From assembly GCA_964646425.1 (NCBI GenBank), contig CAZYEI010000001.1:4731-68730 (forward strand): a stretch of DNA of 64,000 bases, in the 5' to 3' direction. Under the pieces are notes generated by a model. The model saw only the letters and a program-made list of their open reading frames with translations, did not search any database and was not told where the DNA came from. The DNA is from an uncultured Eubacteriales bacterium. GTDB lineage: Bacteria > Bacillota_I > Bacilli_A > RFN20 > JAISJY01. Shown here piece by piece: positions 10,605 to 40,440 of the stretch. Position 1 is the stretch's first letter. Every line of letters begins with the position of its first letter. The position numbers and the translations under genes are program-made.

Positions 10605-13600
10605 TTATTTAATATATGCAATTATTTGGTCATAATAACCATCACGAACTTTTTTAGCAATATCACCTTTAACAACATTGACAGTTGTTTTAACATTGTC
10701 TTTAATTAATTCATAATGAGAAATACAATTATCATTATAAACATTTTTCGCCTTATTTACTTTATAAGTAACTAATGTTTTTCCTAATAATTTAAAAGAT
10801 ACTTCACCATCTTTAGTGAAAAATGAACTGTGAATATGTGGATTAAGCGCCAATTTTAATTCATTATCTTCCATAATAAACATATGCTTTCCTACCATCA
10901 TATACAACCAAATACTTAGCATTTCAGCAGTTGTTCCTGAAAGTCTAGCAACAAAACCTTGTCCGTGAGTTAGAGGATCAGGATTTGCACTTGAAGCTAT
11001 AAATGAAGAATGTTCCATTGGAGATCTACCATAAACCGCAGGATTCATAAAACATACCAGATTAGTCTTCATCGCTTCATGGAATTCTTTATATAATCCA
11101 GCCTTTAATAAACCAAGTAAATACTTATATGTCATATGCATAAAATTTGATTCTCTTTCAAGCCATCCTTTAGTAAAGGCTCTAATTCTACCAATTTCTT
11201 GAGTTTCACCATCTAAATCTGCACTTGTTTTATATGTTTTAAGTTTTTCATCATAAATATCTGATTCTTTGATAAGCTTATACATTTCTTTAAGTTCTTG
11301 TTTATCTTTAACAACTTTTAAGGCTCTTGCAGGCCCTTCTAAGAATTTAGGCAATTCTCTAATTTTAAATTCTTTAACCTTGACTAAATTATATCCTTTA
11401 TAACCTGTTTTAACATTACCATTTTCATCTTTGATTAACTCATAATCAGTAACATCATATGCAATAAAAGTAGGATAAATTCCATTTCCTAATTCTTTTG
11501 CTTTTTCAATTGCAGAATTTAATTTAAGTTGCATTTTCTTTAAAATATTAGCAAAAGAATCAGCAGAAATCTCAATTTCGCCAGTAGCACCTAAACGTAA
11601 TTTTTCACGATAATCTTCTCTAGCACTACATACTTCATCCCAATATTTAAAATCATTGTTATATGTATCTAAAGCATTTTCAACTTTCTTGATAAATAAT
11701 TGTAATTCATTTGTTATATATAATTTTCCATTTGGATATTTTTTTGTCATATCAACTAAGAAATTTACAATCTTTAATGTTTCAAATGTTTCACTTACAC
11801 CAGAAGCAAACAATCCAGGTAAGCCATTCATAGCATCATTCCAACCTGGTTTTCCTGCTTCCATTTCAATACCAATTCCTTTATTATCTAATAATGCAAA
11901 TTTGTTAAATGCCAAAGAAAATAATTTTGAATATAAGTTTGTATAAATAATTTCTTGATTATCATATTTCGCCCAGTTTGTAGTCCATTTATTAATATTA
12001 AATTTATTAATTTTTAAATCATCTTCATGATATAAAGAACCATATTGACGAATTTTTCCTGTTTTTGTTAAAACAGTCTTTGCACTTCGAGGTTGGACAA
12101 AAGCACAAGATTCATAATATTTATAATCTTTTTCTTCAAATAAAGCTCTTTCTTCTTCATCAGGATATACTGATAAAAAGTTATCAACTAAATCCATTAA
12201 ATAAGAAAAATGATCGACCCAGAATCCTTCACCAAATGAAGCTTCAATATTTTGAACTGATTCTCCTAAAATTTGAGATAAATACTCGTCTTCAGTTAAT
12301 TTAGTTTTAACACCATTGTTTTCAACTGTATTAACAATGCTACCTGGAGTAAAACTATTTGATAGCAATTTAGTCATTAGCTCATGATGACTAGCAAAAC
12401 ATGTATCTACAATTTTACTAACATCTGCATTATTTACTAAATTAAATGTTGTACCATTAATTCCTAATGGATTATAACCATCTTGTTGAATCAGTGAAAC
12501 AAAATATTTTAAATTATAATCTTTTACTTTAGGACAAATCAAAGAATCACTTCTTCTATTTTGACAAATGTCACGGAAATTTCCATTACCTTGAGAATAA
12601 TATTCCGGAGCAATTGAAAAGAAATTATAATCTCTCTCTAAATCTCCATGTCTTCTTGAATATAAATAATAAATATACTCTTTATCTTTTGCTTTAAAGG
12701 CAAAAGGATATCCTCCACGAAGTAAATTGTCTAAATATGTGTTCTTTAAATATTCATCAAAAATAGGGAATGCTGTATGTGTTTCAACATCGCTCATCAT
12801 AATTTCAATTACATCTTTTGCTTCTTTTTCTTTTTGATTTACATATTCATGCGAACATAAATGAGGCAAAATTGCATTAAATGCTTCTAATGAATGGCAA
12901 TTACCTATAATAGTATCAAGACGTTTAGTTTCACCAGATTTTAAACATAAAGTAACTGGGGTAAAACCACACAATACTTTATTTGTACAATATTGAGGTT
13001 CTGCTTTCAAAGCCTCAATACCTCCCTTTACAAATTTATCATTTATATTTGTATATGAATTATCATAGCCAAATACAACATATGGATCACAAATAGGTTT
13101 AATTAGTTTGTTGTCAACAAAAGACAAGTAAAAATTACCTTCATAAACTTCAGCAACTTCTTCAGAATCACCTGTTGATGCTCGTAATTTATAGAATGCA
13201 CAATCATTTTCAAGATTGAATACTCCCATCCAAGAACGAAGTAAATTAGACATTACTTTAAATGAACCGTGTTCAGTTCCAGGAGTAAATATTTGTGAAC
13301 ATCCATCCAATAAATCAATTTTTAAATCACTATTCGAAATATTTGTTACTTCAACTTTTCTTACTAAGCCAACAATCGGCTCATTTGGAAGACCAAAATA
13401 AGTAACATCAACTCGAATACCAAGTTTTTTATTTTCTTCACTTATTCTGAATTTTTCTCTACTAATATACATTGTTCTTTTAGCAGAATCATTTTTTACA
13501 CAAAATATTTCTTGTACTTTATTATTTATTTTTACAAAAGTTCTAAAACCAATTCTATTAATAACTTCATACGCAGTGTAAGCAGGGAAAAATTCAAGAA

Positions 13601-13781
13601 TGGCACCATTTTTGTCTCTAACACCAAAACTACTCATTCCTTGGCCTCTATTTACATAAAAAGACCAACCTGGTACTCCTTTCTTACCAGCAATCGCTGG
13701 TAAAAAACTAGAAAATGTTTTTTGTTTATCAAAATTTTCAATTACAAATTCACCATTTGAAAAATAATAATCTTTTTTCAC
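10605..13781 (-). CDS. Large intracellular protein, possibly a GH94/GH149/GH161-like glycoside phosphorylase such as a beta-1,3-glucan phosphorylase. The function is not established from sequence alone.
   Basis: The 1058-aa product has no signal peptide. It is the last gene of an operon with GH16 and CUT1 ABC transporter genes and lies 12 nt after the GH16 lipoprotein gene. Its size and context are typical of beta-1,3-glucan phosphorylases, but I could not verify a catalytic motif by eye. Confidence 0.35.
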   Translation of the reverse strand: MKKDYYFSNGEFVIENFDKQKTFSSFLPAIAGKKGVPGWSFYVNRGQGMSSFGVRDKNGAILEFFPAYTAYEVINRIGFRTFVKINNKVQEIFCVKNDSAKRTMYISREKFRISEENKKLGIRVDVTYFGLPNEPIVGLVRKVEVTNISNSDLKIDLLDGCSQIFTPGTEHGSFKVMSNLLRSWMGVFNLENDCAFYKLRASTGDSEEVAEVYEGNFYLSFVDNKLIKPICDPYVVFGYDNSYTNINDKFVKGGIEALKAEPQYCTNKVLCGFTPVTLCLKSGETKRLDTIIGNCHSLEAFNAILPHLCSHEYVNQKEKEAKDVIEIMMSDVETHTAFPIFDEYLKNTYLDNLLRGGYPFAFKAKDKEYIYYLYSRRHGDLERDYNFFSIAPEYYSQGNGNFRDICQNRRSDSLICPKVKDYNLKYFVSLIQQDGYNPLGINGTTFNLVNNADVSKIVDTCFASHHELMTKLLSNSFTPGSIVNTVENNGVKTKLTEDEYLSQILGESVQNIEASFGEGFWVDHFSYLMDLVDNFLSVYPDEEERALFEEKDYKYYESCAFVQPRSAKTVLTKTGKIRQYGSLYHEDDLKINKFNINKWTTNWAKYDNQEIIYTNLYSKLFSLAFNKFALLDNKGIGIEMEAGKPGWNDAMNGLPGLFASGVSETFETLKIVNFLVDMTKKYPNGKLYITNELQLFIKKVENALDTYNNDFKYWDEVCSAREDYREKLRLGATGEIEISADSFANILKKMQLKLNSAIEKAKELGNGIYPTFIAYDVTDYELIKDENGNVKTGYKGYNLVKVKEFKIRELPKFLEGPARALKVVKDKQELKEMYKLIKESDIYDEKLKTYKTSADLDGETQEIGRIRAFTKGWLERESNFMHMTYKYLLGLLKAGLYKEFHEAMKTNLVCFMNPAVYGRSPMEHSSFIASSANPDPLTHGQGFVARLSGTTAEMLSIWLYMMVGKHMFIMEDNELKLALNPHIHSSFFTKDGEVSFKLLGKTLVTYKVNKAKNVYNDNCISHYELIKDNVKTTVNVVKGDIAKKVRDGYYDQIIAYIK

Positions 13782-13793
13782 ACTTAATTCCTC

Positions 13794-14984
13794 CTATAAA
13801 GCAGAAATTTCTTCTGCTTGGTATACACGAACATAATCAATTACAAATTTGGGACCGATTCCATTTTCATCAAAAATAGAATCATCAATTCCTTGGGCAC
13901 CACCCCAATTACCACCCCACGCAAAATTAAGGATGATAAAGAATTCTTGATCAAATGGCCATGACTTATAATCTGGACAAGCCACATGGCTATTTGGATT
14001 ATATGTATAATATGGATTACCATCAACATAATAAATTATTTTATCTGGCAACCATTCGGTAGTATATGTATGATATGTATCATATATATCGCTCAATTTT
14101 GTAGAGCCACCTTTTTGTAAACCATTCCCCCCATTGAAACTAGCTGTATGGATAGTTCCATGAATTACATTTTCACTATAGCCAACGGTTTCCATAAAAT
14201 CAATTTCTCCAGTATCTGGCCAACTCTTTTTACCATAAACACCAGTGTTTGGCAATGCCCAAAAAGCCGGCCAAGTACCTTTTCCTCTAGGCATTTTAGC
14301 TCTTATTTCAAATTTACCATATTTATATTTGACTTTATTTCTAGTAATAAGTCTTGCAGAAGTATAACTTGAACCTTCATATTCTTCTTTTCTTAATGTA
14401 ATAGTCAAATTTCCATCTTCGACTTTAGCATTTTCTTCTCTATTTGTATAATATTGAAGTTCGTTATTTCCCCAACCCCAACTACCAGTACCAATCTCCG
14501 GTGTCCAATAATCACTTGTAGGAAATCCTTCATAATCAAATTCATCAGACCATACTAATTCATAATTCAAAGTATCATAATTATAATTAAAATTATTAGC
14601 TTTACAAGCACTTGTTCCCTTACCAATAATTACAAAATAATAACCAGTTGCAGTCAAGCCACCACTATCTTCAACTGTAAATGTAACTTTATATTTATTA
14701 TCAATATTTAAGGGGATTGAATCTACATAATTTTTATTATCATAATCATAAATAGTATATGTAATTTTATCAGTTAAATTTCCATCTTCAGTATCATAAG
14801 CAGTAACATTTAACATAACATTATATGTTCCTGAAGATTTAGACGGCATTCTATCAAATAGACCACTTAGTTGTGGAGCCGTATTATTTTCATTATTACT
14901 TGAAGATGTTCCATTTCCTTGACATCCAACAACAGAACAACTTAGCACAAATAACAATCCTAATATTTTTATTTTACGATTCAT
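13794..14984 (-). CDS. Secreted glycoside hydrolase family 16 lipoprotein (laminarinase) with an extra N-terminal beta-sandwich domain
   Basis: A lipobox is present (VLSCSVVGC). The GH16 motif GEIDFMETVGY occurs in the C-terminal domain. Confidence 0.8.
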   Translation of the reverse strand: MNRKIKILGLLFVLSCSVVGCQGNGTSSSNNENNTAPQLSGLFDRMPSKSSGTYNVMLNVTAYDTEDGNLTDKITYTIYDYDNKNYVDSIPLNIDNKYKVTFTVEDSGGLTATGYYFVIIGKGTSACKANNFNYNYDTLNYELVWSDEFDYEGFPTSDYWTPEIGTGSWGWGNNELQYYTNREENAKVEDGNLTITLRKEEYEGSSYTSARLITRNKVKYKYGKFEIRAKMPRGKGTWPAFWALPNTGVYGKKSWPDTGEIDFMETVGYSENVIHGTIHTASFNGGNGLQKGGSTKLSDIYDTYHTYTTEWLPDKIIYYVDGNPYYTYNPNSHVACPDYKSWPFDQEFFIILNFAWGGNWGGAQGIDDSIFDENGIGPKFVIDYVRVYQAEEISAL

Positions 14985-15001: not shown

Positions 15002-15991
15002 CTATTGTCCAGTTAATCCTGTTTGCTCGATACCTTCAACGAATTGTTTTTGAAGAACTGCATATAAAATTAACAATGGAATAATTGAGATTAAAGTTCC
15101 CGCCATTCTTTTTGCTTCGTTAACCATCTCTTTGTTTCCTTTATCAACACCACCAAGCAATGTATCAATGGCATTTAATTGATTTGGCAAAATTTGTAAG
15201 CCACCAGCTAAATAATATTGAGTTCCTAAAGTATCATTCCAATTCCAGACAAATGAAAACAAAAAGACAGTAATAATGATTGGAATTGATAATTTAAAGA
15301 TTACATGATAGAAAGTTTGGAAAGATGTCGCACCATCCATAATTGATGCTTCATCTAAGTCATAAGGAATTTGTTTAAAGAAACTATAACAAATTAAGAT
15401 TAAAATAGTTGAATAAACACCTTGTCCAAATAATGCTAATAATATTTGTGGAAGCACTGTTCCAATCAATTTAATTCCAAGTTTATCATAAATAGTTGTA
15501 AAAATCATTCGACGAGGAATAATTAACATTGGTGCCGGAATAATAAAGGCAGCAATTAATAACCCCCACCAAAACTTTGCCCCCTTAATTTTATATCTTG
15601 CTAAGGCATATCCAGCTAAAGCAGATATAATTGTTTGGATAAAAGCAAGTAAAAATGAGAACCAAACTGAATTAAGCAATGATGTTAAATAATCTAATGC
15701 AAGATAAGCTGCTTTATAATTAACAAATTGCCATTTCTTTGGTAATACTATTACTTCCGGATCAACTAAATCAGAACTTGATTGAAATGATGTGAAAAAC
15801 ATATCTAAAATCGGTTCTAAAAATACAAATGCAATAACAATTAACAATGCATAATAGACAAGCATTGGTAAAAATCCATCACGTAATCCATTACCAAATA
15901 AAAAATTCTTAATCTTTACCCAATTTATTTTCTTAAATTTTTCATATAATGCAACACCAGCATTTTTAATTTTAGTAACTAAATTTTTCAT
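15002..15991 (-). CDS. Carbohydrate ABC transporter permease (MalG/CUT1 family)
   Basis: Multiple TM segments and the EAA-loop motif EASIMDGATSFQTF are present. I moved the start to the ATG at 15991..15989 (MKNLVTK...), which has the Shine-Dalgarno sequence AAGGGGGG and lies 2 nt after the upstream stop. The longer ORF-track start at 16048 overlaps the upstream gene by 56 nt. Confidence 0.85.
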   Translation of the reverse strand: MKNLVTKIKNAGVALYEKFKKINWVKIKNFLFGNGLRDGFLPMLVYYALLIVIAFVFLEPILDMFFTSFQSSSDLVDPEVIVLPKKWQFVNYKAAYLALDYLTSLLNSVWFSFLLAFIQTIISALAGYALARYKIKGAKFWWGLLIAAFIIPAPMLIIPRRMIFTTIYDKLGIKLIGTVLPQILLALFGQGVYSTILILICYSFFKQIPYDLDEASIMDGATSFQTFYHVIFKLSIPIIITVFLFSFVWNWNDTLGTQYYLAGGLQILPNQLNAIDTLLGGVDKGNKEMVNEAKRMAGTLISIIPLLILYAVLQKQFVEGIEQTGLTGQ

Positions 15992-15992
15992 T

Positions 15993-17108
15993 TTAATTAC
16001 CCCCCTTAGAAACATCATCATGTTGCTTCTTAAATTTTTTATTTTCACGTTCTAATTTTTTTCTACGAAGTTCAACTTCCTCTTCATGATCAAGTTGAGC
16101 CCTTCTTAAAGCTTTCATTTGGCGTCTTTGTGAAGCTTGTACACTTCTTAATTTTTTATTTCTTGCTTCAGATTCTTTTCTACCCATATTTTGAGTATAA
16201 GTAATTACCTCTTTAACTTTCTTTTGTCTAGGAAGTAAAATCAAAGCAAATAAACCAATCATTAATAAAATAAAGATTGTCATAATAAAGGCCATTGCTG
16301 CAGCTAAACCTTCTTGATTTATTGTAGTAATCATATTGTTCATAATTGTATATAATTGACTAGTTGGCAAAGTAGCAACTTGTACAATTGAAAATACAGC
16401 AATAATCATAGCAGTAGAACGCACATTAGGAATAGTTATTTTCCATAAACATTGCCATGAAGTTGCTCCATCAATTTGAGCAGCAGCATACAAATCTTTA
16501 CTAATCTTTTGCAATGCATTAATAAATAAAACAATAGGAATACCTGTAAGCCACAAAATTACGACAAACTCATCAAATATTGATTGAACTGCATTAGCAA
16601 GTGGCATACTATAGGAAGAAATAATTCTAAAAAGAAATGAAGTTTGCTCAGGGCCTTCAATAATATTTCCTGTTGTTCCTGTAGTAGTTGATTCAAATAA
16701 CATAGTTATTAATGCACCAGACATAATAATAACAGGCATAAAATAAATAGTTCTAAAGAATCCTCTACCTTTAATATTTTTATTTAATATTATTGCTAAG
16801 ATAAAAGAGATAACTAAGATAATCGGAACATAAATAATTTCCGTTTTCATAAAATCTCCAATTGCTGTTAAAAATGAAACATTTTGTGTCAATGCATTAA
16901 CAAAATTCTTTAAACCATTAAAAGTAAAATGATAGCCATGCACATCATGTTTAACAGTTGAGAAACTCATAATGACAGCAATAATAAAAGGTATAAATGT
17001 TAAAAATACAGCACCTATAATCCATGGAGAAAGGAAAGAATATCCTAAAATATTCTTTCTTTTAGCATTTTCATTTTTAAATTTATATTTTTTTGTTTTT
17101 TCTCCCAT
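15993..17108 (-). CDS. Carbohydrate ABC transporter permease (MalF/CUT1 family) with an unusual ~85-aa Lys/Arg/Glu-rich C-terminal tail
   Basis: The EAA loop AAAQIDGATSWQCLWKITIPN is present. I moved the start to the ATG at 17108..17106 (MGEKTKK...), which has the Shine-Dalgarno sequence GAGGTG and lies 1 nt after the upstream stop. The tail RQKKVKEV...RRKKLERENKKFKKQ looks like a charged coiled coil. Confidence 0.85.
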   Translation of the reverse strand: MGEKTKKYKFKNENAKRKNILGYSFLSPWIIGAVFLTFIPFIIAVIMSFSTVKHDVHGYHFTFNGLKNFVNALTQNVSFLTAIGDFMKTEIIYVPIILVISFILAIILNKNIKGRGFFRTIYFMPVIIMSGALITMLFESTTTGTTGNIIEGPEQTSFLFRIISSYSMPLANAVQSIFDEFVVILWLTGIPIVLFINALQKISKDLYAAAQIDGATSWQCLWKITIPNVRSTAMIIAVFSIVQVATLPTSQLYTIMNNMITTINQEGLAAAMAFIMTIFILLMIGLFALILLPRQKKVKEVITYTQNMGRKESEARNKKLRSVQASQRRQMKALRRAQLDHEEEVELRRKKLERENKKFKKQHDDVSKGGN

Positions 17109-17109
17109 A

Positions 17110-19557
17110 TTATAACACCTCGAATCCTTGAGCTGAAACTTTTGTTTCACCATAAGTAAGAGGTGAATCACTATAGTTTATTACAATTTTCTTTCCATTA
17201 CTATATTCATTTACAATTAAACCATTTTCTAATTTTGTACGATTAATCCAATCTGCATTAATTACTTTTCCTAAAGCACTATCAACTTGTGTATAAATAT
17301 TCTTAATCATCTCTTTATATAATGAATATTCAGTTGAATAATAATTTGAACTATTAGTATATGATAAATAATGCGAAGATTCTTGGCTTAAAACAAATGA
17401 AGGATAAACATTAAAATCTATCATTTTTAAAATACTTTCTTGATCATAGAAACTAAAATTACTATATGGTGCATATAGTTCCATACAACCATTTAAAACT
17501 AATTGTAGTAGTGGGATTTCTGTTTCTTCAATTAAATGTTGACTATTAAATACCGGAATATTGAAATATCTATCAACATATTTCCATAAATATTTATTTG
17601 GTTGTTCAGCATTTACCATACCTTTTCCATCTAAATATTTAAAAGCATTTTCAATATTTTCCATTGCTTTTTCTCTAGTGCCTTTATTATTTGATAAAAC
17701 ACGATTTGAAATACCAGTTACAGTCATTGAATTAATATTAGTTTTTTTACTTAATTCCTTATTTTGTGACTTAACCCATTTTAGTGAAGCATCACTTCTT
17801 GCATAACCAAATTCATTAATAAAGTAATGATTAAATGAAGTATATTCAATATATTTTCCATTATAATGTTTTGTTGCATTACCACTGAAACTTATTTGAC
17901 TTTCATTAATTAAGAAATAATCTTGGGAGAATGAAACATCAACATTTTGTTTTTCCATACTTGAAATTAATGATTTATATTCACTAGCAGTTCCTATTTT
18001 ACTTGTAAAATCTGCTTTATCAGGTCGTCCCAAAGTAATTCCTCCACTTTGCCAACCTAAAAGAGAAGTAACAATGTTGTCAATTCCATTATTTAAAGAA
18101 TCGTTTAAAATTGCTTTTACATCATTTGCTGTTGTTACAACAGCATCACTTGTCCCAAGAACACTTTCTTCAGCATCAGCCATAATGAAGTCTAAACGAG
18201 TAATAATATGCTCATTTTCAAAATTTTTCTTTGTTAATTGTTTTTCTTCATTTATTAAATAATCACGATAAGCCTTAGCAACACCAACATAGTTAGCATT
18301 ATCTCCTTCTAAAAAATCATAACGCATACCAATATCATAATCAAATGGATTATCATTTAATACCGGTGCACTAGATGTGCCATCTTGAGAATAGTATTCA
18401 GTATAATCAAAATTTGTTCTAAATGTTGCATATGCATAAATATAACTATCATTATCCGCGTTATCCGGACTAACATTAATAGCCATATGTTGTTCACCTT
18501 TAGTTGCATAAGCTACAACAGCTTTTTGTGAATTAGTTGCAGTTTCATTATGAACAACACCAAACATTGGCATTGATGCATCTTTCAAAGGAACCGTTGT
18601 TCTTCCTGATTCTGGACTATAATGTTGTTTATTTGTAGTATAATTTTGACCATATACATATGACTTATATACGCCAAGAGTTACATTACTATCTACAAAT
18701 GGAATAATTGCACCTGAACCATCAGGAACAATTATATATCCTTTAGCCATTTCTTTACTTATTTTTGTCTTAGTATCATAATCACCATTTTCAACAAATG
18801 TCTTAATTGTTTCTCCAGTTTCCGGATCAGTTGAATCTGATTCAACTTTTTTTGAAACAAATGGGCTACCTTCTCCACCTGTTGCGCCAATAAATGGGGC
18901 TATTGTTATATCTATTAATCTGTTTTTATCTGCACCAGTAATTTCTTCGTGACGAAGTTCAAATTCAATGCCTTTTTCATCAAAATAAATATGAACAGAA
19001 AGATTAATATCAGCCCATACTCCAATTTGAAAATCTAAACGATAGTGAGTATCACTATTATCGATTTTCATTAAAGTAGACTTACCATATTTTGGATTTT
19101 CATGAGCACTTGAAACTTTAAATAAATTAGTCATTGCTTTATCATCTTTTTTATAAATATATGCAGTAACTAAAGAATTGATTATTGAGTTTCCTGTTGT
19201 ATCTTCATATAAATCACAAACATAATTTGGATCAGCATTCATTGCCTTTCGACATGCATCTCTTGCTTCTCTTTTTGTTTGATAAGGAACATCAGCTCCT
19301 GTTTTCCATAATATTTCTTTTGAATTAACATCTTGAATTTGAATAATATCTAATGATTCTTTATATGAATATATATATTTACTATTACGATATAATTCAA
19401 CATATGTATCTTCATCCTTTGAAGATATGGCAGTTTTGGCAATTTCTTTTGTTGAGTTGTTATTTGCTTCTTCATTTCCAGCAATATTAATCAATGAAGA
19501 TAAAGGAAGCAAAAATACAATTAGTGCTAAATACTTAATTTTTTTAACTAATGACAT
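17110..19557 (-). CDS. Secreted protein of unknown function (815 aa) encoded within the ABC transporter operon
   Basis: The signal peptide MSLVKKIKYLALIVFLLPLSSLINIAG follows a strong Shine-Dalgarno sequence, AAGGAGG, and the start overlaps the upstream gene by 14 nt. I recognise no catalytic motif. It may be a DUF-type glycan-processing or glycan-binding protein. Confidence 0.5.
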   Translation of the reverse strand: MSLVKKIKYLALIVFLLPLSSLINIAGNEEANNNSTKEIAKTAISSKDEDTYVELYRNSKYIYSYKESLDIIQIQDVNSKEILWKTGADVPYQTKREARDACRKAMNADPNYVCDLYEDTTGNSIINSLVTAYIYKKDDKAMTNLFKVSSAHENPKYGKSTLMKIDNSDTHYRLDFQIGVWADINLSVHIYFDEKGIEFELRHEEITGADKNRLIDITIAPFIGATGGEGSPFVSKKVESDSTDPETGETIKTFVENGDYDTKTKISKEMAKGYIIVPDGSGAIIPFVDSNVTLGVYKSYVYGQNYTTNKQHYSPESGRTTVPLKDASMPMFGVVHNETATNSQKAVVAYATKGEQHMAINVSPDNADNDSYIYAYATFRTNFDYTEYYSQDGTSSAPVLNDNPFDYDIGMRYDFLEGDNANYVGVAKAYRDYLINEEKQLTKKNFENEHIITRLDFIMADAEESVLGTSDAVVTTANDVKAILNDSLNNGIDNIVTSLLGWQSGGITLGRPDKADFTSKIGTASEYKSLISSMEKQNVDVSFSQDYFLINESQISFSGNATKHYNGKYIEYTSFNHYFINEFGYARSDASLKWVKSQNKELSKKTNINSMTVTGISNRVLSNNKGTREKAMENIENAFKYLDGKGMVNAEQPNKYLWKYVDRYFNIPVFNSQHLIEETEIPLLQLVLNGCMELYAPYSNFSFYDQESILKMIDFNVYPSFVLSQESSHYLSYTNSSNYYSTEYSLYKEMIKNIYTQVDSALGKVINADWINRTKLENGLIVNEYSNGKKIVINYSDSPLTYGETKVSAQGFEVL

Positions 19558-21658
19558 TTCTAATCGCCTCCTTAAACAACGAACCAACATAATCAATCAA
19601 ATCACCAGCAAGCATTGTAATTATTAATATTACTAATAAAATTATCAACATAAATCCGATAGTAATAATAATACTCTTTATTGTTTGCCAGAAAGTATAA
19701 TTATGAATATTTTCAATACCCATAAAAATCATAAATCCTGTTAACCCAATTCCAGCATATTGAATTACTTGTAATAAAAAAACATCATCATATGTCAAGA
19801 AATGAGATAATATTGTAACAACAATCATTGAAATCATCCATGGAACAAGTGAATATCCAATCGTACGATAAATTGAAATCATTGTTCCTTCACCATCTTG
19901 AATAGAGGTTACCATATAATTACAATATATAAATAAACCAATAATGCCAACATATCCAGCAGTTAAAGCAATAAAGTCAACTTCAAAGGCTTCGACATAT
20001 TGATAGATAAATCCTTTACCTATTGTATACCATAAGAAAACTGCAAATGTAATAATATATAAAACTGTTGCCGCTAAAGTTGAACCTCTTTTTCCAGCCC
20101 TTAAATCATAAAAACTATCAGTTGGTTTCACTAATAATTGGTAAGTAAATTTTAAATCTTTAACCAGTTTAACATTATCTACCTTATTTTTAGCATTAAC
20201 AGCCACAGCTAAGCAATTAGTTCTCTTATGAACTTTCTTTAATATTACAATAGCAATGATTGCAATAAATAAAATCACTAATGCTGTAACTAAGTTATTT
20301 TGAATCCAAATATTACGAACTTCCCAATAAGCTTTTGAATATGATTGTCTATTTCTCGCAATTTCCAAATGGTACATTGCACTTTCATAATCTTCATTAT
20401 ATAAGTAATTTAAACCAATGTTATTATGAGCAAGTGAAGACATTTGATTCAATTCAATTACTTCTTCCCATAATGCAATTGATTCATCATAATGACCTAA
20501 ATCATATTCAGCAAGTGCTGCATAGATTTTTTTAGAGTAATCAGTAGGTGTAAAAGTGTGAACTGCAGCTTTTTCACTATCTAAACACCATATTTTTCCA
20601 TTATTATCAACAGCAATAGAAACTAATGAAGAGAACAATCCATCAATATCTTGAGTACTATCAGGTGTTTTACCACCAAACACACATAAAAATTCACCAT
20701 CATTAGTGTAAATATAAATATATCCATCATTACTTGCAGCATAAACAATACCTTGAGAATCAACATAAATATCAACTGGTGAGTTTGAAGAAACTAGATC
20801 ATACTTTGTAAATTGATTTACTCCTGCAGTATTGTGTTTTTGAATAAAAGCATAAGGTTTTGAATAATTTGTTGTAGTGTATAATAAACCATCTTTATCA
20901 GTAAATAAATTACTAAATAAAGGTGCTTGAATTGCTAAACCTAAATTTTCTTTTTGTTCTGTTGTAAATAGAATATCGTAAATATAATCCATAATTCCTT
21001 TAGTAACTTTGTTTGTTGCAAAATAGCCAAGGAATGAACCTTTCTTATCTAATTGAATTACACCATCGCCAATTCCATCTGCGATAACATAAACATTTCC
21101 ATTAATGTCGGCAGAAACTTTAGAAGGTTCAAAATCACGATCTCTAAATAAAGTGCTTGTTGGTTTTCCAAAAGCTGTATAATACTCAAATTTAGATGAT
21201 GAATCATTATATTGATAAATATATACATTTCTTGCTTCAGAATCCGCAATATAAAGCAAACGATTATTTAATTCGTTATTATATGTTATAAATACACCTC
21301 TAGGATTTTTTATATTTTCTCCTTCAATTGTATATAACAAATTCATATTATCATCAAAAACACGAACAGCACCCAAAGTATTTTTATCTAATTTTGAATC
21401 TGCAATATAAATAATATTGTCTTCATCAATAAAAATATCGTTTGGTTTATTTAGTCCAATATCTGTTAATGTTTTATTTGGTAAATAAGCATCTTGAGTT
21501 CTAATTAAACCATGTCCTCTTGCATCAAGAGAATATGTATATGATGTTGCATTTCCACTCATTTCTACTACCATAATATCTTTATTTTTTGGGGCCATTG
21601 CGAAACAAGTGAATAAAATAAGGACAACCGCAACAAATCCTTTTAATTTCATTTTCAT
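19544..21658 (-). CDS. Signal peptide + NHL/beta-propeller-like repeats + TPR + C-terminal polytopic Yip1-like membrane domain (704 aa)
   Basis: An N-terminal signal peptide (MKMKLKGFVAVVLILFTCFAMA) is followed by repeated ...IYIAD/VYVIAD/IVYAASNDGYIYIY... blades typical of NHL/YVTN propellers. TPR-like helices follow (ALAEYDLGHYDESIALWEEVIEL...NNIGLNYLYNEDYESAMYHLEIA), then a TM helix and a region of about 5 TM segments resembling the Yip1/DUF1282 family. The ORF is adjacent to, or overlaps, both neighbouring genes. Confidence 0.55.
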   Translation of the reverse strand: MKMKLKGFVAVVLILFTCFAMAPKNKDIMVVEMSGNATSYTYSLDARGHGLIRTQDAYLPNKTLTDIGLNKPNDIFIDEDNIIYIADSKLDKNTLGAVRVFDDNMNLLYTIEGENIKNPRGVFITYNNELNNRLLYIADSEARNVYIYQYNDSSSKFEYYTAFGKPTSTLFRDRDFEPSKVSADINGNVYVIADGIGDGVIQLDKKGSFLGYFATNKVTKGIMDYIYDILFTTEQKENLGLAIQAPLFSNLFTDKDGLLYTTTNYSKPYAFIQKHNTAGVNQFTKYDLVSSNSPVDIYVDSQGIVYAASNDGYIYIYTNDGEFLCVFGGKTPDSTQDIDGLFSSLVSIAVDNNGKIWCLDSEKAAVHTFTPTDYSKKIYAALAEYDLGHYDESIALWEEVIELNQMSSLAHNNIGLNYLYNEDYESAMYHLEIARNRQSYSKAYWEVRNIWIQNNLVTALVILFIAIIAIVILKKVHKRTNCLAVAVNAKNKVDNVKLVKDLKFTYQLLVKPTDSFYDLRAGKRGSTLAATVLYIITFAVFLWYTIGKGFIYQYVEAFEVDFIALTAGYVGIIGLFIYCNYMVTSIQDGEGTMISIYRTIGYSLVPWMISMIVVTILSHFLTYDDVFLLQVIQYAGIGLTGFMIFMGIENIHNYTFWQTIKSIIITIGFMLIILLVILIITMLAGDLIDYVGSLFKEAIRNVIS

Positions 21659-21659
21659 A

Positions 21660-22538
21660 TTATTTAATACCTGAATGAGCCATAGTATTCATAACTTTAC
21701 TTTGCATGAAAATAAAGATAATTAAATTTGGCACAAAGATAATAACAGACGCTGCAGCTTGCATACCGACCCCAATAATGCTATTTCCTGTAGTCGTCAT
21801 TGTTAATGTATTTAAGTAATAAGCAAATGTTTTTAGCGATTCTTCTTGAATGTATAAAGAAGAAGTTGAAGTATTATTCCAAACGCTTTGGAATGTTAAA
21901 ATACCTACCGTTGCAATCGCAGGTTTAATAATAGGAACAATTATCTTCCAGACAGTTTGGAAATCATTTGCACCATCTAACTTAGCTGATTCAATTAATT
22001 CATCTGGTGTTTGGTCCATAAATTGCTTAACTAAGAATAAACCAACTGGCATTGCAACAAGTGGAATTATATTTGCCCAGAAACTATTAATTAATCCAAT
22101 TTTACTAATAATAAAATAAGACGGAATTGAAAGAGCAGTACCAACAAACATAAGTGCAGTTTGATTTATAGAAACTAATTTACCACAAAATTTAAAATGC
22201 TTTTTTGATAAAGCATATGCTGCGAGCACTGTAATAACCCAGTTAATTAAAACCGTTAATACGGTAACGACAATTGAATTAAATAAATATCTAGACATTG
22301 GAATAAAGGTTGTTGAACCAGCCTTAAATAATCTTTTAAAATTATCTAATGTTGGATTTTGAACTAAAAACTTTGGTGGGAATGCAAATAATTCATCTAA
22401 AGGTTTTAGTGAGTGACAAAAAGTATATATTAAAGGTAAAATCATAAATGCTGCAATTGGAAGCAAGATTATATAAAATTTAATTTGGGATTTTGAAAAC
22501 TTTTTAGGGTTTATTGTGGATCCACTTAATTTTGCCAT
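21660..22538 (-). CDS. Carbohydrate ABC transporter permease (LplC/MalG-like, CUT1)
   Basis: The EAA loop ESAKLDGANDFQTVWKIIVPI is present, with 6 predicted TM segments. Confidence 0.85.
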   Translation of the reverse strand: MAKLSGSTINPKKFSKSQIKFYIILLPIAAFMILPLIYTFCHSLKPLDELFAFPPKFLVQNPTLDNFKRLFKAGSTTFIPMSRYLFNSIVVTVLTVLINWVITVLAAYALSKKHFKFCGKLVSINQTALMFVGTALSIPSYFIISKIGLINSFWANIIPLVAMPVGLFLVKQFMDQTPDELIESAKLDGANDFQTVWKIIVPIIKPAIATVGILTFQSVWNNTSTSSLYIQEESLKTFAYYLNTLTMTTTGNSIIGVGMQAAASVIIFVPNLIIFIFMQSKVMNTMAHSGIK

Positions 22539-22550
22539 ATACTACACCTC

Positions 22551-23522
22551 CTAATCCTTTTCACCAAATAGTTTATATGCAATTTTAGTAAAAATCATAA
22601 TAATTGCTAATAAAACTACTGATAATGCTGCTGCATAACCCATTTCATAACGTGCATAACCATAATCATCAATATGGTTAATAATCAATTGTGCTGAATA
22701 TTCAGGAGTTGGGTTTACTCCAGAAAGAGCAACACCTATACCTCCATTATTAAATGCACTGACAATTGCCATAACTGCTCCAAATAGCATTTGTGGTTTC
22801 ATGTTCGGAATTGTTACATACATAATTTCTTGAAATCTATTTTTTACGCCATCTATATGAGCTGCTTCATATTGTTCAGCATCAATATTAAGCATACCAG
22901 CTAATGTACTTAAAAAACCAACTCCCATTGAACTCCATAGAGCAACAACAATAACAATGGTCATTAAATACTTTGGATCTTGTAAAAATTGAATTGGCGT
23001 ATCTATTAATCCTAATTGCAATAAGATTGAATTTATATAACCACTTTGGTCACCTGAGAATAGTGTTTTCCAAATTACAGCCATAAATACACCACCAAGC
23101 ATACTTGGCAAATATAATATTAAAGCTAAAACTGTTCTAGGTTTATGTGGTAATTGAGCAAGCATCCATGCCAACATAAATGAAATTATATAACCACCAG
23201 GGCCAGTAATAATTGCATATTTAAATGTATTTGGCAATACATACTTTAAAAATATTTCATCTTGAGTTAATAAATAAATATAATTATCTAATCCACTAAA
23301 TTTTGGACTTTCAATAACGTTAAAAGAGGTAAATGAAAGACCGATTGCCACAGCAACTGGAATAGCAATGAATATACAGAAAAGTAATGCATAAGGTAAT
23401 AGCATAATAATGGTAGCACCCAAATCGCTAAATGTCATTCTTTTTAAGCGATTCCAAGCTGTATTTATGTAGCCACCTACACTCTTTCTTTCTTTAATTT
23501 CTTTTATTTTCTTTTCTTTCAT
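22551..23522 (-). CDS. Carbohydrate ABC transporter permease (LplB/MalF-like, CUT1)
   Basis: The EAA loop [22 protein letters not shown] is present. The N-terminal basic extension is typical of LplB-type permeases. Confidence 0.85.
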
Positions 23523-23524
23523 AA

Positions 23525-25153
23525 CTAATTACCTTTATTTTGGGCAATCATTTTTTCCACCCAATCTCTTTCTCTAATTGTATAACCATCTGTATAACCA
23601 AATTCTTCTAATTTTCTTGTTATTTCTCTATTTATTGAAATAACTGCAGTATCAATTGATCCCCTAACAGGTTCGTTGCTTAATACAACTTGTGTCCAAA
23701 TATTACTTAGTCCTCTTTCTAACATATATTGTCCTGGAGTTCTAGGAATATCGATAATATATTCAAGAGAATTTAAAATAACTTGTTTATCTTTTGAATC
23801 AATTGGCGCATTGGCAACTGCTTCTAGATTACAGCTTAACCATAAATATTCAGGTCCATATGTAGATTGCAAAGTATAACCAAATTCTGTTTGAACTTCA
23901 GTTGAAGTCCACCATTTTAAGAAATCCCAACATCTTTCAGCTTTGTTAGTATCAGCAAATATCATCGATGCAGAACCATTACTGATATATGTTCTATTTA
24001 TTGAACCATCATCTTGTTCTGTTCCAAGAGGCAAAGTAATTTGCCATTTACCATTTAATTCTGGAGCTGCATTTTTCATCATCAAGTAATCAGAGAATGA
24101 AGCAGTTCCAATTGGTTGAGTTCCATTTCTAAATGAATTATAGAAACTTTGAACTTGCGTTGATAAAGAATATTTTGTAAATAATTCTGTTAATTGAGTT
24201 ATTCCCTTAACAGCTGCTTCTGAATTAATAGCAGTAGCAGTTCCATTTGCATTATATAATTGTCCACCATTTTGATAAATCAATGGTGCAGTTTGATAGA
24301 ACCACTTAGTTGCATTTGTAGCACTAATTTGCATATAGTAATTCATTCCATATCTTTGTAATGTAGGAAGAATACCAATCATTTCAGTATAAGTATTTGG
24401 AACATCAATATCAAATGAATTAAAAATATCTTCACGATACATCATAACATTAAAATCAAGTGTTTCAGGTAATCCGTAAACTTTATCATTTAAAATATAT
24501 GATACTAAAGTTCCTGGAGCAAAATGGTTATCACTCATAACTTGCCAAAAATCTTCAAATTGAGTCATATCATATGCTGCATTTCTAACTGCAAAATCGA
24601 ATGGCATATGTGAACCAAGTCCCATAGCCATATCTGGTGTTTCGCCAGCAGCATTTGCCAATAATAATTTTGAAGCATCAGGCATAATTGCTAATTTTAC
24701 TTTGGTTTCCGTAGTATTAAATTCACGATCAATCATATTTTGCATAATATCAATGTAGGTCATTGGTCTATTTACCCAAATTGTTAAAACATTAGGATCT
24801 TCATCATCCAATGATTGTTTATACTTATCAGAAAAGAATGAATCCAGTAAGATTGTTGCATCAGCACCTAAAGTAACAAAAACATTTTTAGTTGCTCTTG
24901 GCAATTTAGTTTTTCCATAAACATACATCATATCTAAAGATATTGCTTGTCCAGAAAATGAAGAAATACTTTCACCAACAAGAGCGTTTATAGAACTTGT
25001 ACCACTATATAAATTTTCTAAATATAGAGGCAATTCATCAGGCTCTTCCATTAATTCTTCCAAAGTAGCAATTGCTTTTTGCACATATGAAAGTAATGAA
25101 GAATCAGCACCTTTTTCAGAATAAATTTTTCCTCTTGTAATTATTGCTTTCAT
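23525..25153 (-). CDS. Family-1 extracellular solute-binding-protein-like domain protein (LplA-like). It has no signal peptide of its own and no RBS.
   Basis: The 542-aa product has the size and composition of LplA-type oligosaccharide-binding proteins and is coupled to the permeases, with a 2-nt gap. The sequence upstream of its ATG (TATTTAAAAGCTTATGATACTTTAATG) has no Shine-Dalgarno element. It is in frame with the upstream ORF across a single TAA. Confidence 0.6.
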
Positions 25154-25177
25154 TAAAGTATCATAAGCTTTTAAATA

Positions 25178-26521: not shown

Positions 26522-26560
26522 AATTAACCCCACCTTAATTAATTGTAAAGACTGCATAAG

Positions 26561-26587
26561 AGTAGGACAAAAAATGTCCTACTCTAT
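26561..26587 (-). other. Intercistronic stem-loop GAGUAGGACA-uuuu-UGUCCUACUC immediately downstream of the SBP gene
   Basis: A perfect 10-bp stem is visible, with no clear U-tract after it on the minus strand. It may act as a 3'-stabilising or processing element. Confidence 0.45.
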
Positions 26588-28305: not shown

Positions 28306-28338
28306 TATTTTGCCTCCTATTTTACTAATTATCAATTC

Positions 28339-28368
28339 AAAGGTAACAACACTAAAGTTGTTACCTTT
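28339..28368. other. Perfect hairpin AAAGGTAACAAC-actaaa-GTTGTTACCTTT between the lipoprotein gene and the SBP gene
   Basis: A 12-bp stem is present. T-rich sequence follows it only on the plus strand. On the minus-strand operon transcript it would act as an intercistronic stability or processing structure rather than a terminator. Confidence 0.5.
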
Positions 28369-28378
28369 ATTTTTATTA

Positions 28379-30157: not shown

Positions 30158-30186
30158 ATTATATTAAATATTGTAAGCGGTGTCAA
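30158..30186 (-). promoter_or_regulatory. Consensus sigma-A promoter (TTGACA-17-TATAAT) for the polysaccharide-utilisation operon
   Basis: On the minus strand, TTGACA (30186..30181), a 17-nt spacer and TATAAT (30163..30158) form the promoter. It implies a 5'UTR of about 100 nt that contains the palindrome. Confidence 0.55.
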
Positions 30187-40427: not shown

Positions 40428-40440
40428 ATTTTCTCCTCCA

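What the first reader, a model, noticed from the sequence alone, without database searches (positions are those of the whole stretch)
17110..19557. 815-aa secreted protein of unknown function embedded between two ABC permease pairs
The gene has a strong SD and a signal peptide, and it overlaps the upstream gene by 14 nt. Its stop codon lies 1 nt before the next permease start codon. I can find no GH catalytic signature or SBP-like pattern by eye. It may be an uncharacterised extracellular glycan-processing or glycan-binding component specific to this locus.
Basis: inference. Interest (0 to 1): 0.5.

Follow-up and report, generated by a model that had tools for sequence, protein, structure and literature searches.

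The report
Surface glycosidase-like partner of sugar importer
The gene is real and encodes a cell-surface protein of the uncharacterised DUF5696 family; it has the fold of GH129/GH101 glycosidases and always sits in a fixed gene cassette with a propeller/Yip1 membrane protein and a sugar ABC importer, so this is one example of a large, unstudied transporter-linked system and not a local oddity.

Summary
An 815-codon gene lies on the minus strand (ATG 19557 to TAA 17110) with an AAGGAGG ribosome-binding site, a 14-nt overlap with the upstream gene and TAA-T-ATG coupling to the next permease.

The protein matches Pfam DUF5696 (E 6.5e-131). This family has more than 7,000 clusters at 50% identity, and I found no paper on it.

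In 60-66 of 60-66 related loci, DUF5696 follows an NHL-propeller/TPR/Yip1 membrane protein and precedes two dedicated ABC permeases. A giant binding protein and a second permease pair are usually present as well.

Here the cassette sits in a laminarin operon with GH16, GH5 and a GH161 phosphorylase.

Most family members keep four Asp (279, 305, 623, 678). The window clade has N305, N623 and E678. I therefore favour an importer-associated oligosaccharide-handling role. Whether the protein cuts its ligand or only binds it is unresolved.

"Extracellular glycan component" is supported.

The parts
17110..19557 (-). DUF5696 gene, 815 aa (the finding)
   Evidence: ORF and translation. Pfam PF18952 E 6.5e-131, residues 181-812. 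dN/dS 0.10 and 0.29 against orthologues.
19567..19573 (-). Shine-Dalgarno AAGGAGG, 9 nt upstream of the ATG
   Evidence: Read directly from the sequence.
19480..19554 (-). Codons 2-26: N-terminal hydrophobic helix (signal peptide or type II membrane anchor)
   Evidence: AF2 helix 2-26 followed by a disordered linker 24-34. The same feature occurs in 180 of 186 family members.
18298..19440 (-). Codons about 40-420: N-terminal beta-sandwich domain. It carries the family motif GY..VPDGSGAI (D279) and YG.D (N305 in this protein).
   Evidence: AF2 secondary structure, conservation, hhalign to the DagB N-domain.
17263..18240 (-). Codons about 440-765: (beta/alpha)8 barrel. Strands start near residues 453, 495, 539, 610, 647, 663, 693 and 720. 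N623 and E678 occupy positions where the family has Asp.
17113..17250 (-). Codons 770-815: C-terminal beta domain
   Evidence: AF2. It aligns to the C-terminal Ig-like domain of DagB.
19544..21658 (-). Partner gene YIP, 704 aa: N-terminal helix, six-bladed NHL propeller, TPR-like helices, Yip1 multi-pass membrane domain. It overlaps the DUF5696 gene by 14 nt.
   Evidence: Pfam, AF2 and Foldseek. It lies upstream of DUF5696 in 60 of 60 loci. The same 14-nt overlap occurs in L003, L118 and L119.
15993..17108 (-). P3, dedicated ABC importer permease, 371 aa. Its start is 1 nt after the DUF5696 stop.
   Evidence: BPD_transp_1. Best PDB matches are SugA, AlgM1 and MalF, and the coupling-helix motif AAQIDGATSW..ITIP is present. 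It lies downstream of DUF5696 in 66 of 66 loci.
15002..15991 (-). P4, second dedicated permease, 329 aa from ATG 15991 (TAA-A-ATG junction, SD AAGGGGG)
   Evidence: It lies downstream in 60 of 60 loci.
21660..23522 (-). P1 (22551-23522) and P2 (21660-22538): first permease pair
   Evidence: BPD_transp_1, own HMMs.
23525..26557 (-). Giant binding protein (about 1,010 codons; N-terminal extension plus SBP_bac_1/8 domain), broken here by an in-frame TAA at 25178-25180
   Evidence: Orthologues are intact at 997-998 aa.
26611..30049 (-). Two further SBP-like lipoprotein genes (574 and 556 aa) at the head of the operon
   Evidence: Their orthologues carry SBP_bac_1/8 hits.
30158..30186 (-). Perfect TTGACA-17-TATAAT promoter-like site upstream of the first gene of the operon
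   Evidence: a consensus match only.
10605..14984 (-). Downstream catabolic genes: GH16 (13794-14984) and GH161 beta-1,3-glucan phosphorylase (10605-13781)
   Evidence: Pfam. PDB 9qqk/9sr2 GH161, E 3.5e-215.

Best explanation
The gene encodes a surface-exposed DUF5696 protein. It is held at the membrane by an N-terminal helix or released by a signal peptidase. Its ectodomain has the three-domain GH129/GH101 glycosidase architecture: beta-sandwich, (beta/alpha)8 barrel and C-terminal beta domain.

It is the invariant middle gene of a conserved cassette: NHL-propeller/TPR/Yip1 membrane protein, then DUF5696, then two type I ABC importer permeases. One or two binding proteins accompany the cassette, and usually a second permease pair does too. 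The genes are translationally coupled.

In this window the cassette is embedded in a laminarin (beta-1,3-glucan) operon. I propose that DUF5696 works at the outer face of the membrane next to its dedicated importer. There it takes oligosaccharides released by the secreted GH16 enzyme(s) into its barrel pocket. It then either trims them or simply passes them on for uptake. In the cytoplasm GH161 phosphorolyses them.

Shown: gene, family, fold, homology to GH129-like enzymes, cassette conservation, purifying selection and the laminarin context.

Inferred: surface location, physical association with YIP and P3/P4, and the ligand.

Unresolved: catalysis. Most of the family keeps four Asp (279, 305, 623, 678), which fits a glycosidase site. 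The window clade has Asn at 305 and 623 and Glu at 678. For this protein I therefore lean slightly towards a binding or hand-over role, or a rewired site, and away from a classical retaining hydrolase.
For: - Family: Pfam DUF5696, 438 bits.
- Homology: a PDB profile search hits DagB in three collinear stretches. hhalign of the family against 25 DagB homologues gives 99.9%, E 8e-32, 637 columns.
- Cassette: seen in all loci inspected one by one. In 80 metagenomic loci YIP is upstream in 60/60, P3 downstream in 66/66 and P4 downstream in 60/60.
- Self-contained cassettes: some have no other GH nearby (L001, L002, L094, L085).
- P3/P4 are real importer subunits.
- Coupling: 14-nt and 1-nt junctions recur.
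- The N-terminal hydrophobic segment is family-wide.
- Purifying selection: dN/dS 0.10.
- Pocket residues D279, Y302, N654, Y656, S672 and N700 are retained in the window protein, while D305N, D623N and D678E are changed.
- Laminarin context: GH16 x2, GH5, LacI, GH161 (PMC6484121).
Against: - No biochemical data exist for any DUF5696 protein.
- I could not inspect model coordinates, so the clustering of residues 279/305/623/678 in the barrel mouth is inferred from strand order and not seen.
- The family's relatives (GH129, GH101, GH36, GH31, GH13) act on alpha-linkages, whereas the local substrate is a beta-glucan.
- Physical association with the transporter rests on gene order alone.
- The clade keeps its own invariant acids (D461, D546, E677/E678), so it may be a fully active enzyme with a shifted catalytic pair.
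- The giant binding-protein gene of this cassette carries a stop codon in the window. The system may therefore be impaired in this strain, or the assembly may contain an error.
Confidence: 0.6

Rival explanations
1. It is an ordinary, fully active secreted glycoside hydrolase of a not-yet-defined GH family. For example, it could remove side branches or end groups from laminarin, or cleave an alpha-linked decoration. On this view it is merely co-regulated with the transporter and is not part of it. The window clade would use a different pair of carboxylates.
For: - GH129/GH101 fold and homology.
- Four well-conserved Asp in most of the family.
- Stand-alone cassettes in which DUF5696 is the only enzyme-like protein.
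- Clade-invariant acids D461, D546, E677 and E678 on barrel loops.
- E651 aligns with DagB E517.
Against: - No carboxylate column is invariant across the family. D623 is 73% conserved, D678 82%, and the beta4-end column only 29% Asp.
- Aligned to the GH129 nucleophile is window N618, in a column that is variable across the family.
- Three of the four signature Asp are replaced in the window clade.
- A merely co-regulated enzyme would not be expected to keep one exact position and translational coupling in 60-66 of 60-66 loci.
Confidence: 0.27
2. The YIP-DUF5696 pair is not catabolic. It senses extracellular glycan or acts on the cell's own envelope or exopolysaccharide, and the permeases serve another purpose.
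For: - NHL propellers serve as extracellular sensor domains, for example PknD.
- Several cassettes sit next to AraC-type or two-component regulators.
- Yip1-domain proteins have no known role in sugar import (my own knowledge).
Against: - P3/P4 are canonical CUT1-type importer subunits with the ATPase-coupling motif.
- Binding proteins always accompany the cassette.
- Flanking genes, where informative, are catabolic GHs and a phosphorylase.
- YIP has no kinase or other output domain.
Confidence: 0.08
3. The gene is a decaying remnant in this strain, because the cassette's giant binding protein is already broken.
For: In-frame TAA at 25178-25180 in the SBP gene, which is intact in orthologues. 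Signature Asp are lost.
Against: - The 815-codon frame is intact, with an SD and coupled junctions.
- dN/dS is 0.10.
- The Asp replacements are shared by all nine clade members from independent samples, so they are old and fixed.
- All other cassette genes are intact.
Confidence: 0.04

Closest known systems
GH129-like alpha-1,3-(3,6-anhydro)-D-galactosidase DagB / ZgGH129 of Zobellia galactanivorans (PDB 5opq, 8rzg-8rzk; PMC5698469)
   Different: Identity is only 11-16%. The residues shown by mutagenesis to be essential in DagB do not map onto conserved acids. D486 aligns with window N618, E517 with E651 (acidic in only 43% of the family), E531 with F665/N666, and D202 with no conserved position. 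DagB is a soluble periplasmic homodimer in a Bacteroidota carrageenan PUL. DUF5696 occurs in Bacillota and Mollicutes-like bacteria and is tied to an ABC cassette.
GH129 alpha-N-acetylgalactosaminidase NagBb of Bifidobacterium bifidum (PDB 5wzn) and GH101 endo-alpha-GalNAc-ases (EngBF, SpGH101)
   Different: The protein has no Pfam GH129 or GH101 match. I could not align the NagBb catalytic pair D435/E478 directly. Those enzymes act on alpha-GalNAc of mucin glycans, whereas the window context is beta-1,3-glucan.
Type I (CUT1) sugar ABC importers such as LpqY-SugABC, MalFGK2-MalE and AlgM1M2SS-AlgQ2
   Same: P1-P4 are BPD_transp_1 permeases with the EAA coupling motif. P3 matches SugA, AlgM1 and MalF. 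The ATPase is encoded elsewhere, as in many Gram-positive systems (PMC6484121).
   Different: No described importer of this class carries a dedicated GH-fold ectoprotein and a propeller/Yip1 membrane protein between two permease pairs. The main binding protein is about 1,000 aa, roughly twice the usual size.
4F2hc (CD98hc)/rBAT heavy chains of eukaryotic heteromeric amino-acid transporters (PDB 6i9q, 6irs)
   Different: The heavy chains are GH13-type and lack the N-terminal beta-sandwich. Their partner is a LeuT-fold transporter, linked by a disulfide. Association of DUF5696 with P3/P4 is untested.
Acholeplasma laidlawii GH161/GH94 laminarin gene clusters described in PMC6484121
   Same: The description matches the right half of the window cassette: GH161, GH16 and two permeases 'without an SBP', lying next to a cluster that has an SBP plus permeases. 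Base composition and the names on the homologues place the window organism in or near Acholeplasmatales/Haloplasmatales.
   Different: That paper treats them as two adjacent clusters sharing one SBP and does not discuss the genes in between. I could not fetch the A. laidlawii locus to confirm that YIP and DUF5696 are those genes.

Membership tests
Pfam DUF5696 (PF18952) | Match to the family HMM above the gathering score | tested here: met
   438.2 bits against a cut-off of 25.6; E 6.5e-131; profile positions 19-612 of 612.
DUF5696 mainstream (my own definition from 192 + 82 sequences) | Four signature Asp at window positions 279 (VPDGSG), 305 (YG.D), 623 (SD[FY]) and 678 (D..[IV]P) | tested here: not met
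   The window has D279, N305, N623 and E678. Among the 192 aligned sequences these columns are D in 94%, 85%, 73% and 82%; in the 82 added locus sequences most carry D at all four. The whole nine-member clade shares N305 and N/H623.
YIP-DUF5696-P3-P4 cassette (defined here) | Propeller/Yip1 gene immediately upstream and two dedicated permease genes immediately downstream, on the same strand | tested here: met
   Window gene order. The same order holds in 60/60, 66/66 and 60/60 metagenomic loci and in every genome locus inspected.
CAZy GH129 (including GH129-like DagB) | Three-domain fold with a central (beta/alpha)8 barrel | tested here: met
CAZy GH129 (including GH129-like DagB) | Detectable sequence homology | tested here: met
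   hhalign 99.9%, E 8e-32 against DagB homologues. PDB profile search E 2e-10. No hit by single-sequence phmmer and no Pfam GH129 hit.
CAZy GH129 (including GH129-like DagB) | Catalytic nucleophile Asp after beta4 (NagBb D435 / DagB D486) | tested here: not met
   The aligned residue is N618, in a variable family column. The neighbouring beta4-end column 615 is G in the window and D in only 29% of the family. Alignment confidence in this stretch is only 2-5 of 9, so a shift of a few residues cannot be excluded.
CAZy GH129 (including GH129-like DagB) | Second catalytic carboxylate (DagB E517/E531; NagBb E478) | tested here: inconclusive
   E517 aligns with window E651, a column that is acidic in 43% of the family. 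E531 aligns with F665/N666, and column 666 is N/D/E in 86% of the family.
CAZy GH129 (including GH129-like DagB) | Retaining alpha-glycosidase activity | not testable with these tools
   Needs enzyme assays.
Secreted or surface protein | N-terminal signal peptide or signal anchor | tested here: met
   A basic n-region plus a hydrophobic stretch of about 19 residues. AF2 shows helix 2-26 followed by a disordered linker. Cleavage versus anchoring could not be tested, and there is no lipobox Cys.
Type I ABC importer permeases (for neighbours P3 and P4) | BPD_transp_1 domain with the EAA/coupling-helix motif | tested here: met
   (EASIMDGATSFQ..LSIP in P4; AAQIDGATSWQ..ITIP in P3).
Transporter heavy-chain-like pseudo-glycosidase (4F2hc analogy) | Physical complex with the transporter, plus loss of catalysis | not testable with these tools
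   Only gene order, translational coupling and the Asp replacements speak for it.

The most novel reading that the evidence does not exclude
DUF5696 and the propeller/Yip1 protein are integral subunits of a previously unrecognised class of Gram-positive sugar ABC importers. In this reading a membrane-tethered glycosidase-fold ectodomain and an extracellular propeller dock on a dedicated permease pair. The topology parallels 4F2hc/rBAT on eukaryotic transporters. Capture of large oligosaccharides, and in most lineages their cleavage, would then be mechanically coupled to import. That would make the cassette a Bacillota counterpart of the Bacteroidota SusCD utilisome. The window clade would be a variant in which the ectodomain has given up hydrolysis and only hands over laminarin fragments.
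Probability: 0.25. Interest if true: 0.8.

Novelty: new variant of a known kind. Interest (0 to 1): 0.55.

Why it matters
DUF5696 is a very large family: more than 7,000 clusters at 50% identity, found in soil, gut, bioreactor and marine Bacillota and relatives. I could find no publication on it.

This work links it to the GH129/GH101 glycosidase superfamily. It also shows that the family is bound to a fixed cassette with a propeller/Yip1 membrane protein and its own ABC permease pair. Together these give a concrete, testable hypothesis for thousands of "hypothetical" genes in Gram-positive polysaccharide-utilisation loci.

If the proteins form a complex with the importer, that would be a new way of coupling extracellular glycan handling to uptake in bacteria that lack an outer membrane. 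It would also explain the puzzling "two permease pairs, one binding protein" layout already noted around GH161 laminarin clusters.

If instead the protein is simply a new GH family, it adds a CAZy family with unknown specificity.

Tried and rejected
1. Single-sequence search of the PDB found nothing. Only the family profile reached GH129.

2. NCBIfam gave only a spurious sub-threshold hit, the TDE1717 beta-barrel family at 22 bits against a cut-off of 135. I rejected it.

3. A database search with a 146-aa fragment of DagB returned nothing. That search was wasted, so I recovered DagB homologues through a genome scan instead.

I repeated it with nine mainstream sequences. That sample is therefore biased to proteins carrying the PDGSGA motif.

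5. I tried to place the GH129 catalytic residues by profile-profile alignment. Confidence in the catalytic half of the barrel is low (2-5 of 9), so the mapping is only indicative. Model coordinates are not exposed, so I could not measure distances.

6. Recoding of the stop inside the SBP gene was considered. The codon is TAA, not TGA, and TAA is the commonest genuine stop in the window, so code 4 or readthrough is not supported.

7. I looked for fusions of DUF5696 to Yip1, permease or CBM domains in long family members and found none.

8. Rfam found no RNA element in the window. The promoter and terminator scans are at background level, apart from one perfect promoter match.

9. Literature searches for DUF5696, PF18952 and Yip1 combined with ABC/SBP/polysaccharide found nothing relevant.

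Full report
**1. Observation**

The finding's coordinates are exact, but the gene lies on the minus strand.
- The ATG is at 19557 and the TAA at 17112-17110, giving 815 aa.
- AAGGAGG sits at 19573-19567, 9 nt upstream of the ATG.
- The upstream gene (19544-21658) ends 14 nt inside this gene. The stop is followed by one base and then the ATG of the next gene at 17108.
- The same TAA-N-ATG junction joins that gene to the following permease, whose real start is ATG 15991.
- The N-terminus is a basic stretch followed by a hydrophobic segment with no lipobox cysteine.
- The window has 28.7% G+C, so an 815-codon open frame is not a chance event.
- Against orthologues of 88% and 70% identity, dN/dS is 0.10 and 0.29.
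- One detail needs correcting. The immediate upstream neighbour is not a permease. It is a 704-aa membrane protein, and the first permease pair lies beyond it.

**2. Family**

- The protein matches Pfam DUF5696 (PF18952) at E 6.5e-131 over residues 181-812.
- NCBIfam gives nothing meaningful.
- A profile of 38 homologues finds 7,124 representatives of 50%-identity clusters at E <= 1e-3, and 4,125 at E <= 1e-30. This is a large family.
- Named members come from Paenibacillus, Cohnella, Oscillospiraceae, Ruminiclostridium, Haloplasmataceae and unclassified Bacillota.
- Full-text searches for DUF5696 and PF18952 return no paper.

**3. Fold and distant homology**

- The AlphaFold2 model is confident (pLDDT 87, pTM 0.86). 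It shows:
  - an N-terminal helix (2-26) and a disordered linker;
  - a large beta-sandwich (about 40-420);
  - a linker helix carrying the motif ANYVG.A..YR.YL;
  - a (beta/alpha)8 barrel (about 453-765);
  - a small C-terminal beta domain.
- Foldseek against the PDB puts the GH129-like 3,6-anhydro-D-galactosidase DagB/ZgGH129 first (5opq, E 2e-27). Next come the GH129 alpha-GalNAc-ase NagBb (E 2.5e-23), GH101, GH36 and GH31.
- The relation is also visible in sequence.
  - The family profile hits DagB in three collinear stretches (E 2e-10) and NagBb (E 3e-5).
  - I fetched 27 DagB homologues from genomes. Their numbering reproduces the published D202, D486, E517 and E531 (PMC5698469).
  - hhalign of the DUF5696 family against them gives 99.9% probability, E 8e-32, over 637 columns spanning both proteins end to end.
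- DUF5696 is therefore a remote homologue of the GH129/GH101 group, at 11-16% identity.

**4. Catalytic residues**

- I aligned 192 family members. No carboxylate column is invariant.
- The best-conserved acidic columns, in window numbering, are:
  - D279 in the N-domain motif GY..VPDGSGAI (94% D);
  - D305 in YG.D (85%);
  - D623 in an SD[FY] motif nine residues after strand beta4 (73%);
  - D678 four residues before an invariant Pro in the beta6-alpha6 loop (82%).
- In 82 further proteins taken from loci, most carry all four.
- The window protein has D279, N305, N623 and E678. All nine members of its clade share N305 and N/H623. The nearest outgroups (Haloplasma and relatives) keep D305 and D/E623 but have T678.
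- The published DagB catalytic residues do not map onto conserved acids:
  - D486 aligns with N618, a variable column;
  - E517 aligns with E651, acidic in 43% of the family;
  - E531 aligns with F665/N666.
  Alignment confidence is only 2-5 of 9 in this part.
- Other pocket-type residues are conserved in the family and kept in the window protein: Y302, N654, Y656, S672 and N700. The clade also has its own invariant acids D461, D546 and E677 on barrel loops.
- I conclude that a ligand pocket is maintained. Classical GH129-type catalysis cannot be assumed. The window clade departs from the family's own signature at three of four positions.
- I could not see model coordinates, so the spatial clustering of these residues is inferred from strand order only.

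**5. Genomic context**

This is the main new result.
- In the window the minus-strand order is:
  1. two SBP-like genes (28379-30049 and 26611-28335);
  2. a giant binding-protein gene (23525-26557);
  3. permeases P1 and P2;
  4. the 704-aa gene, here called YIP;
  5. DUF5696;
  6. permeases P3 and P4;
  7. GH16;
  8. a 1,058-aa gene;
  9. a 968-aa F5/8-type-C protein;
  10. a second GH16, LacI and GH5.
- The same core order (big SBP, P1, P2, YIP, DUF5696, P3, P4) appears around homologues of only 22-39% identity. These come from Paenibacillus, an Oscillospiraceae MAG, Haloplasmataceae and other Bacillota and from close relatives.
- I built HMMs for each cassette gene and scanned 80 metagenomic DUF5696 loci.
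  - YIP is immediately upstream in 60 of 60 loci with enough flank.
  - P3 is downstream in 66 of 66, and P4 in 60 of 60.
  - The big SBP-P1-P2 block is upstream in 29 of 44 loci, downstream in 2, and absent from the flank in 13.
- In two of the loci lacking that block, an ordinary 439-465-aa SBP follows P4. In L094 the surrounding genes are unrelated; in L085 another SBP and an AraC-type regulator lie just upstream. Neither locus shows another GH, so YIP-DUF5696-P3-P4-SBP behaves as a self-contained unit.
- Searching from the YIP side gives the same picture. In Haloplasma contractile and another genome, DUF5696 follows with the identical 14-nt overlap.
- P3 and P4 are genuine type I importer subunits. 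They carry the EAA coupling motif and match SugA, AlgM1, MalF and MalG.
- No ATPase gene lies in the operon. This is usual for such systems (PMC6484121).
- No long family member is fused to another known domain.

**6. The partner YIP**

- The model (pLDDT 83) shows:
  - an N-terminal helix;
  - a six-bladed NHL propeller (about 30-371);
  - TPR-like helices;
  - a long helix;
  - a multi-pass Yip1 domain (527-703).
- Foldseek finds NHL domains of TRIM, Brat and Thin, and the extracellular sensor domain of PknD. These are binding platforms, not enzymes.
- YIP is better conserved than DUF5696: 38-47% identity in its homologues from Haloplasma, Acholeplasmatales and Clostridia, against 20-39% for distant DUF5696 homologues.
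- Within the cassette, DUF5696 evolves fastest. That fits the component that meets a variable ligand.

**7. Local pathway**

- The 1,058-aa protein has no Pfam hit, but it matches the solved GH161 beta-1,3-glucan phosphorylases 9qqk and 9h8v at E of about 1e-215.
- Together with two GH16, one GH5 and a LacI regulator, the operon is a laminarin/beta-1,3-glucan utilisation locus.
- Related cassettes carry GH16/GH30/GH3/GH5/GH1 or PF10091/GH35/GH3.
- The GH161 paper describes Acholeplasma laidlawii clusters with "two permeases, GH16, GH161 but no SBP", lying next to a cluster that has an SBP and permeases (PMC6484121). This looks like the same cassette with the two middle genes left undiscussed. 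I could not fetch that genome to confirm it.

**8. Mechanism proposed**

- Shown:
  - a real, selected gene;
  - DUF5696 membership;
  - the GH129/GH101 fold and homology;
  - an extracytoplasmic N-terminus, shared by 180 of 186 family members;
  - an obligatory, translationally coupled cassette with YIP and an ABC importer;
  - the laminarin context.
- Inferred: the ectodomain sits at the membrane surface beside P3/P4 and YIP. It receives oligosaccharides produced by secreted GH16. It either trims them or passes them to the importer, and GH161 then phosphorolyses them inside the cell.
- For the family as a whole, a glycosidase activity is plausible. Four Asp are conserved, and DUF5696 is the only enzyme-like gene in stand-alone cassettes.
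- For this clade, the replacement of three signature Asp while the pocket and the cassette are kept under purifying selection makes a binding or hand-over role, or a rewired active site, slightly more likely than a classical hydrolase.
- My confidence is 0.6 in the importer-associated glycan-handling picture. Within it, I put roughly 0.45 on non-classical or binding and 0.4 on an active hydrolase.

**9. Rivals**

- A free-standing new GH that is merely co-regulated with the transporter (0.27).
- A sensing or envelope role (0.08).
- A decaying gene (0.04). This was prompted by the in-frame TAA at 25178-25180, which splits the giant SBP gene here but not in orthologues. It is contradicted by the selection data.

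**10. Comparison and novelty**

- The closest known proteins are DagB/ZgGH129 and NagBb. Fold and homology are shared, while the catalytic residues, host phylum, substrate context and gene neighbourhood differ.
- I do not file the protein as GH129, because the nucleophile test was not met.
- The protein itself is one more member of a catalogued DUF.
- What appears undescribed is the family's link to GH129/GH101 and its fixed cassette.
- I rate it a new variant of a known kind, with interest 0.55.

Noticed in passing
window 25178-25180 (minus strand), within 23525-26557: The cassette's giant binding-protein gene is split by a single in-frame TAA into a 459-aa N-terminal part and a 542-aa SBP part. 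The second part would lack a signal peptide. Orthologues are intact at 997-998 aa. This is a nonsense mutation or an assembly error, not TGA recoding.
   Followed up: partly
window 10605-13781 (minus strand): A 1,058-aa ORF with no Pfam hit is a GH161 beta-1,3-glucan phosphorylase (PDB 9qqk/9h8v, E about 1e-215). The NCBIfam GH149 model hits only weakly. This fixes the operon as a laminarin locus.
   Followed up: yes
window 19544-21658 (minus strand) and loci L038-L117: The propeller/TPR/Yip1 partner is more conserved than DUF5696 (38-47% against 20-39% identity to distant homologues). In many metagenomic loci it is split into two genes, a propeller part and a Yip1 part.
   Followed up: partly
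window 23525-26557; L001, L002, L003, L005, L007, L009: The main binding protein of the cassette is about 970-1,000 aa. It has an N-terminal extension of about 450 aa with two repeat-like beta-rich segments ahead of the SBP_bac_1/8 domain. One orthologue has a faint Golvesin_C hit. This may be a built-in carbohydrate-binding module.
   Followed up: no
window 1-64000: None of the 45 ORFs of at least 150 aa with a readable stop ends in TGA (37 TAA, 8 TAG), at 28.7% G+C. Homologues' names point to Acholeplasmatales/Haloplasmatales relatives.
   Followed up: partly
window 30158-30186 (minus strand): A perfect TTGACA-17-TATAAT match lies just upstream of the first SBP-like gene. No convincing minus-strand terminator is seen in the scanned stretch down to 13000. 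This suggests one long operon; a run of more than 20 kb down to about 7500 is inferred from gene order only.
   Followed up: no
window 26559-26585 and 28339-28368: Two 11-12-bp stem hairpins sit in the short gaps between the SBP-like genes. They may be intercistronic stabilisers or attenuators that set SBP-to-permease ratios.
   Followed up: no
PMC6484121 (Acholeplasma laidlawii PG-8A GH161 and GH94 clusters): The published 'GH161 cluster lacking an SBP, next to a GH94 cluster with an SBP' resembles the two halves of this cassette. The genes between them (probably YIP and DUF5696) were not discussed there.
   Followed up: partly
window 7511-10417 (minus strand) and 38925-40508 (minus strand): There is a 968-aa protein with atrophied Ig and F5/8-type-C (galactose-binding-like) domains but no recognised catalytic domain. 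There is also a 527-aa BspA-type LRR surface protein. Both are uncharacterised surface proteins.
   Followed up: no
window 15993-17108 (P3) compared with L001/L005 P3: P3 of the window clade is about 70 aa longer (371 aa against 295-300 aa) than in Paenibacillus-type cassettes. A hydrophilic stretch around residue 139 (ESATTGTTENIIEGPEQ) is probably the insert, possibly an extracellular loop; this placement was not checked on the alignment.
   Followed up: no
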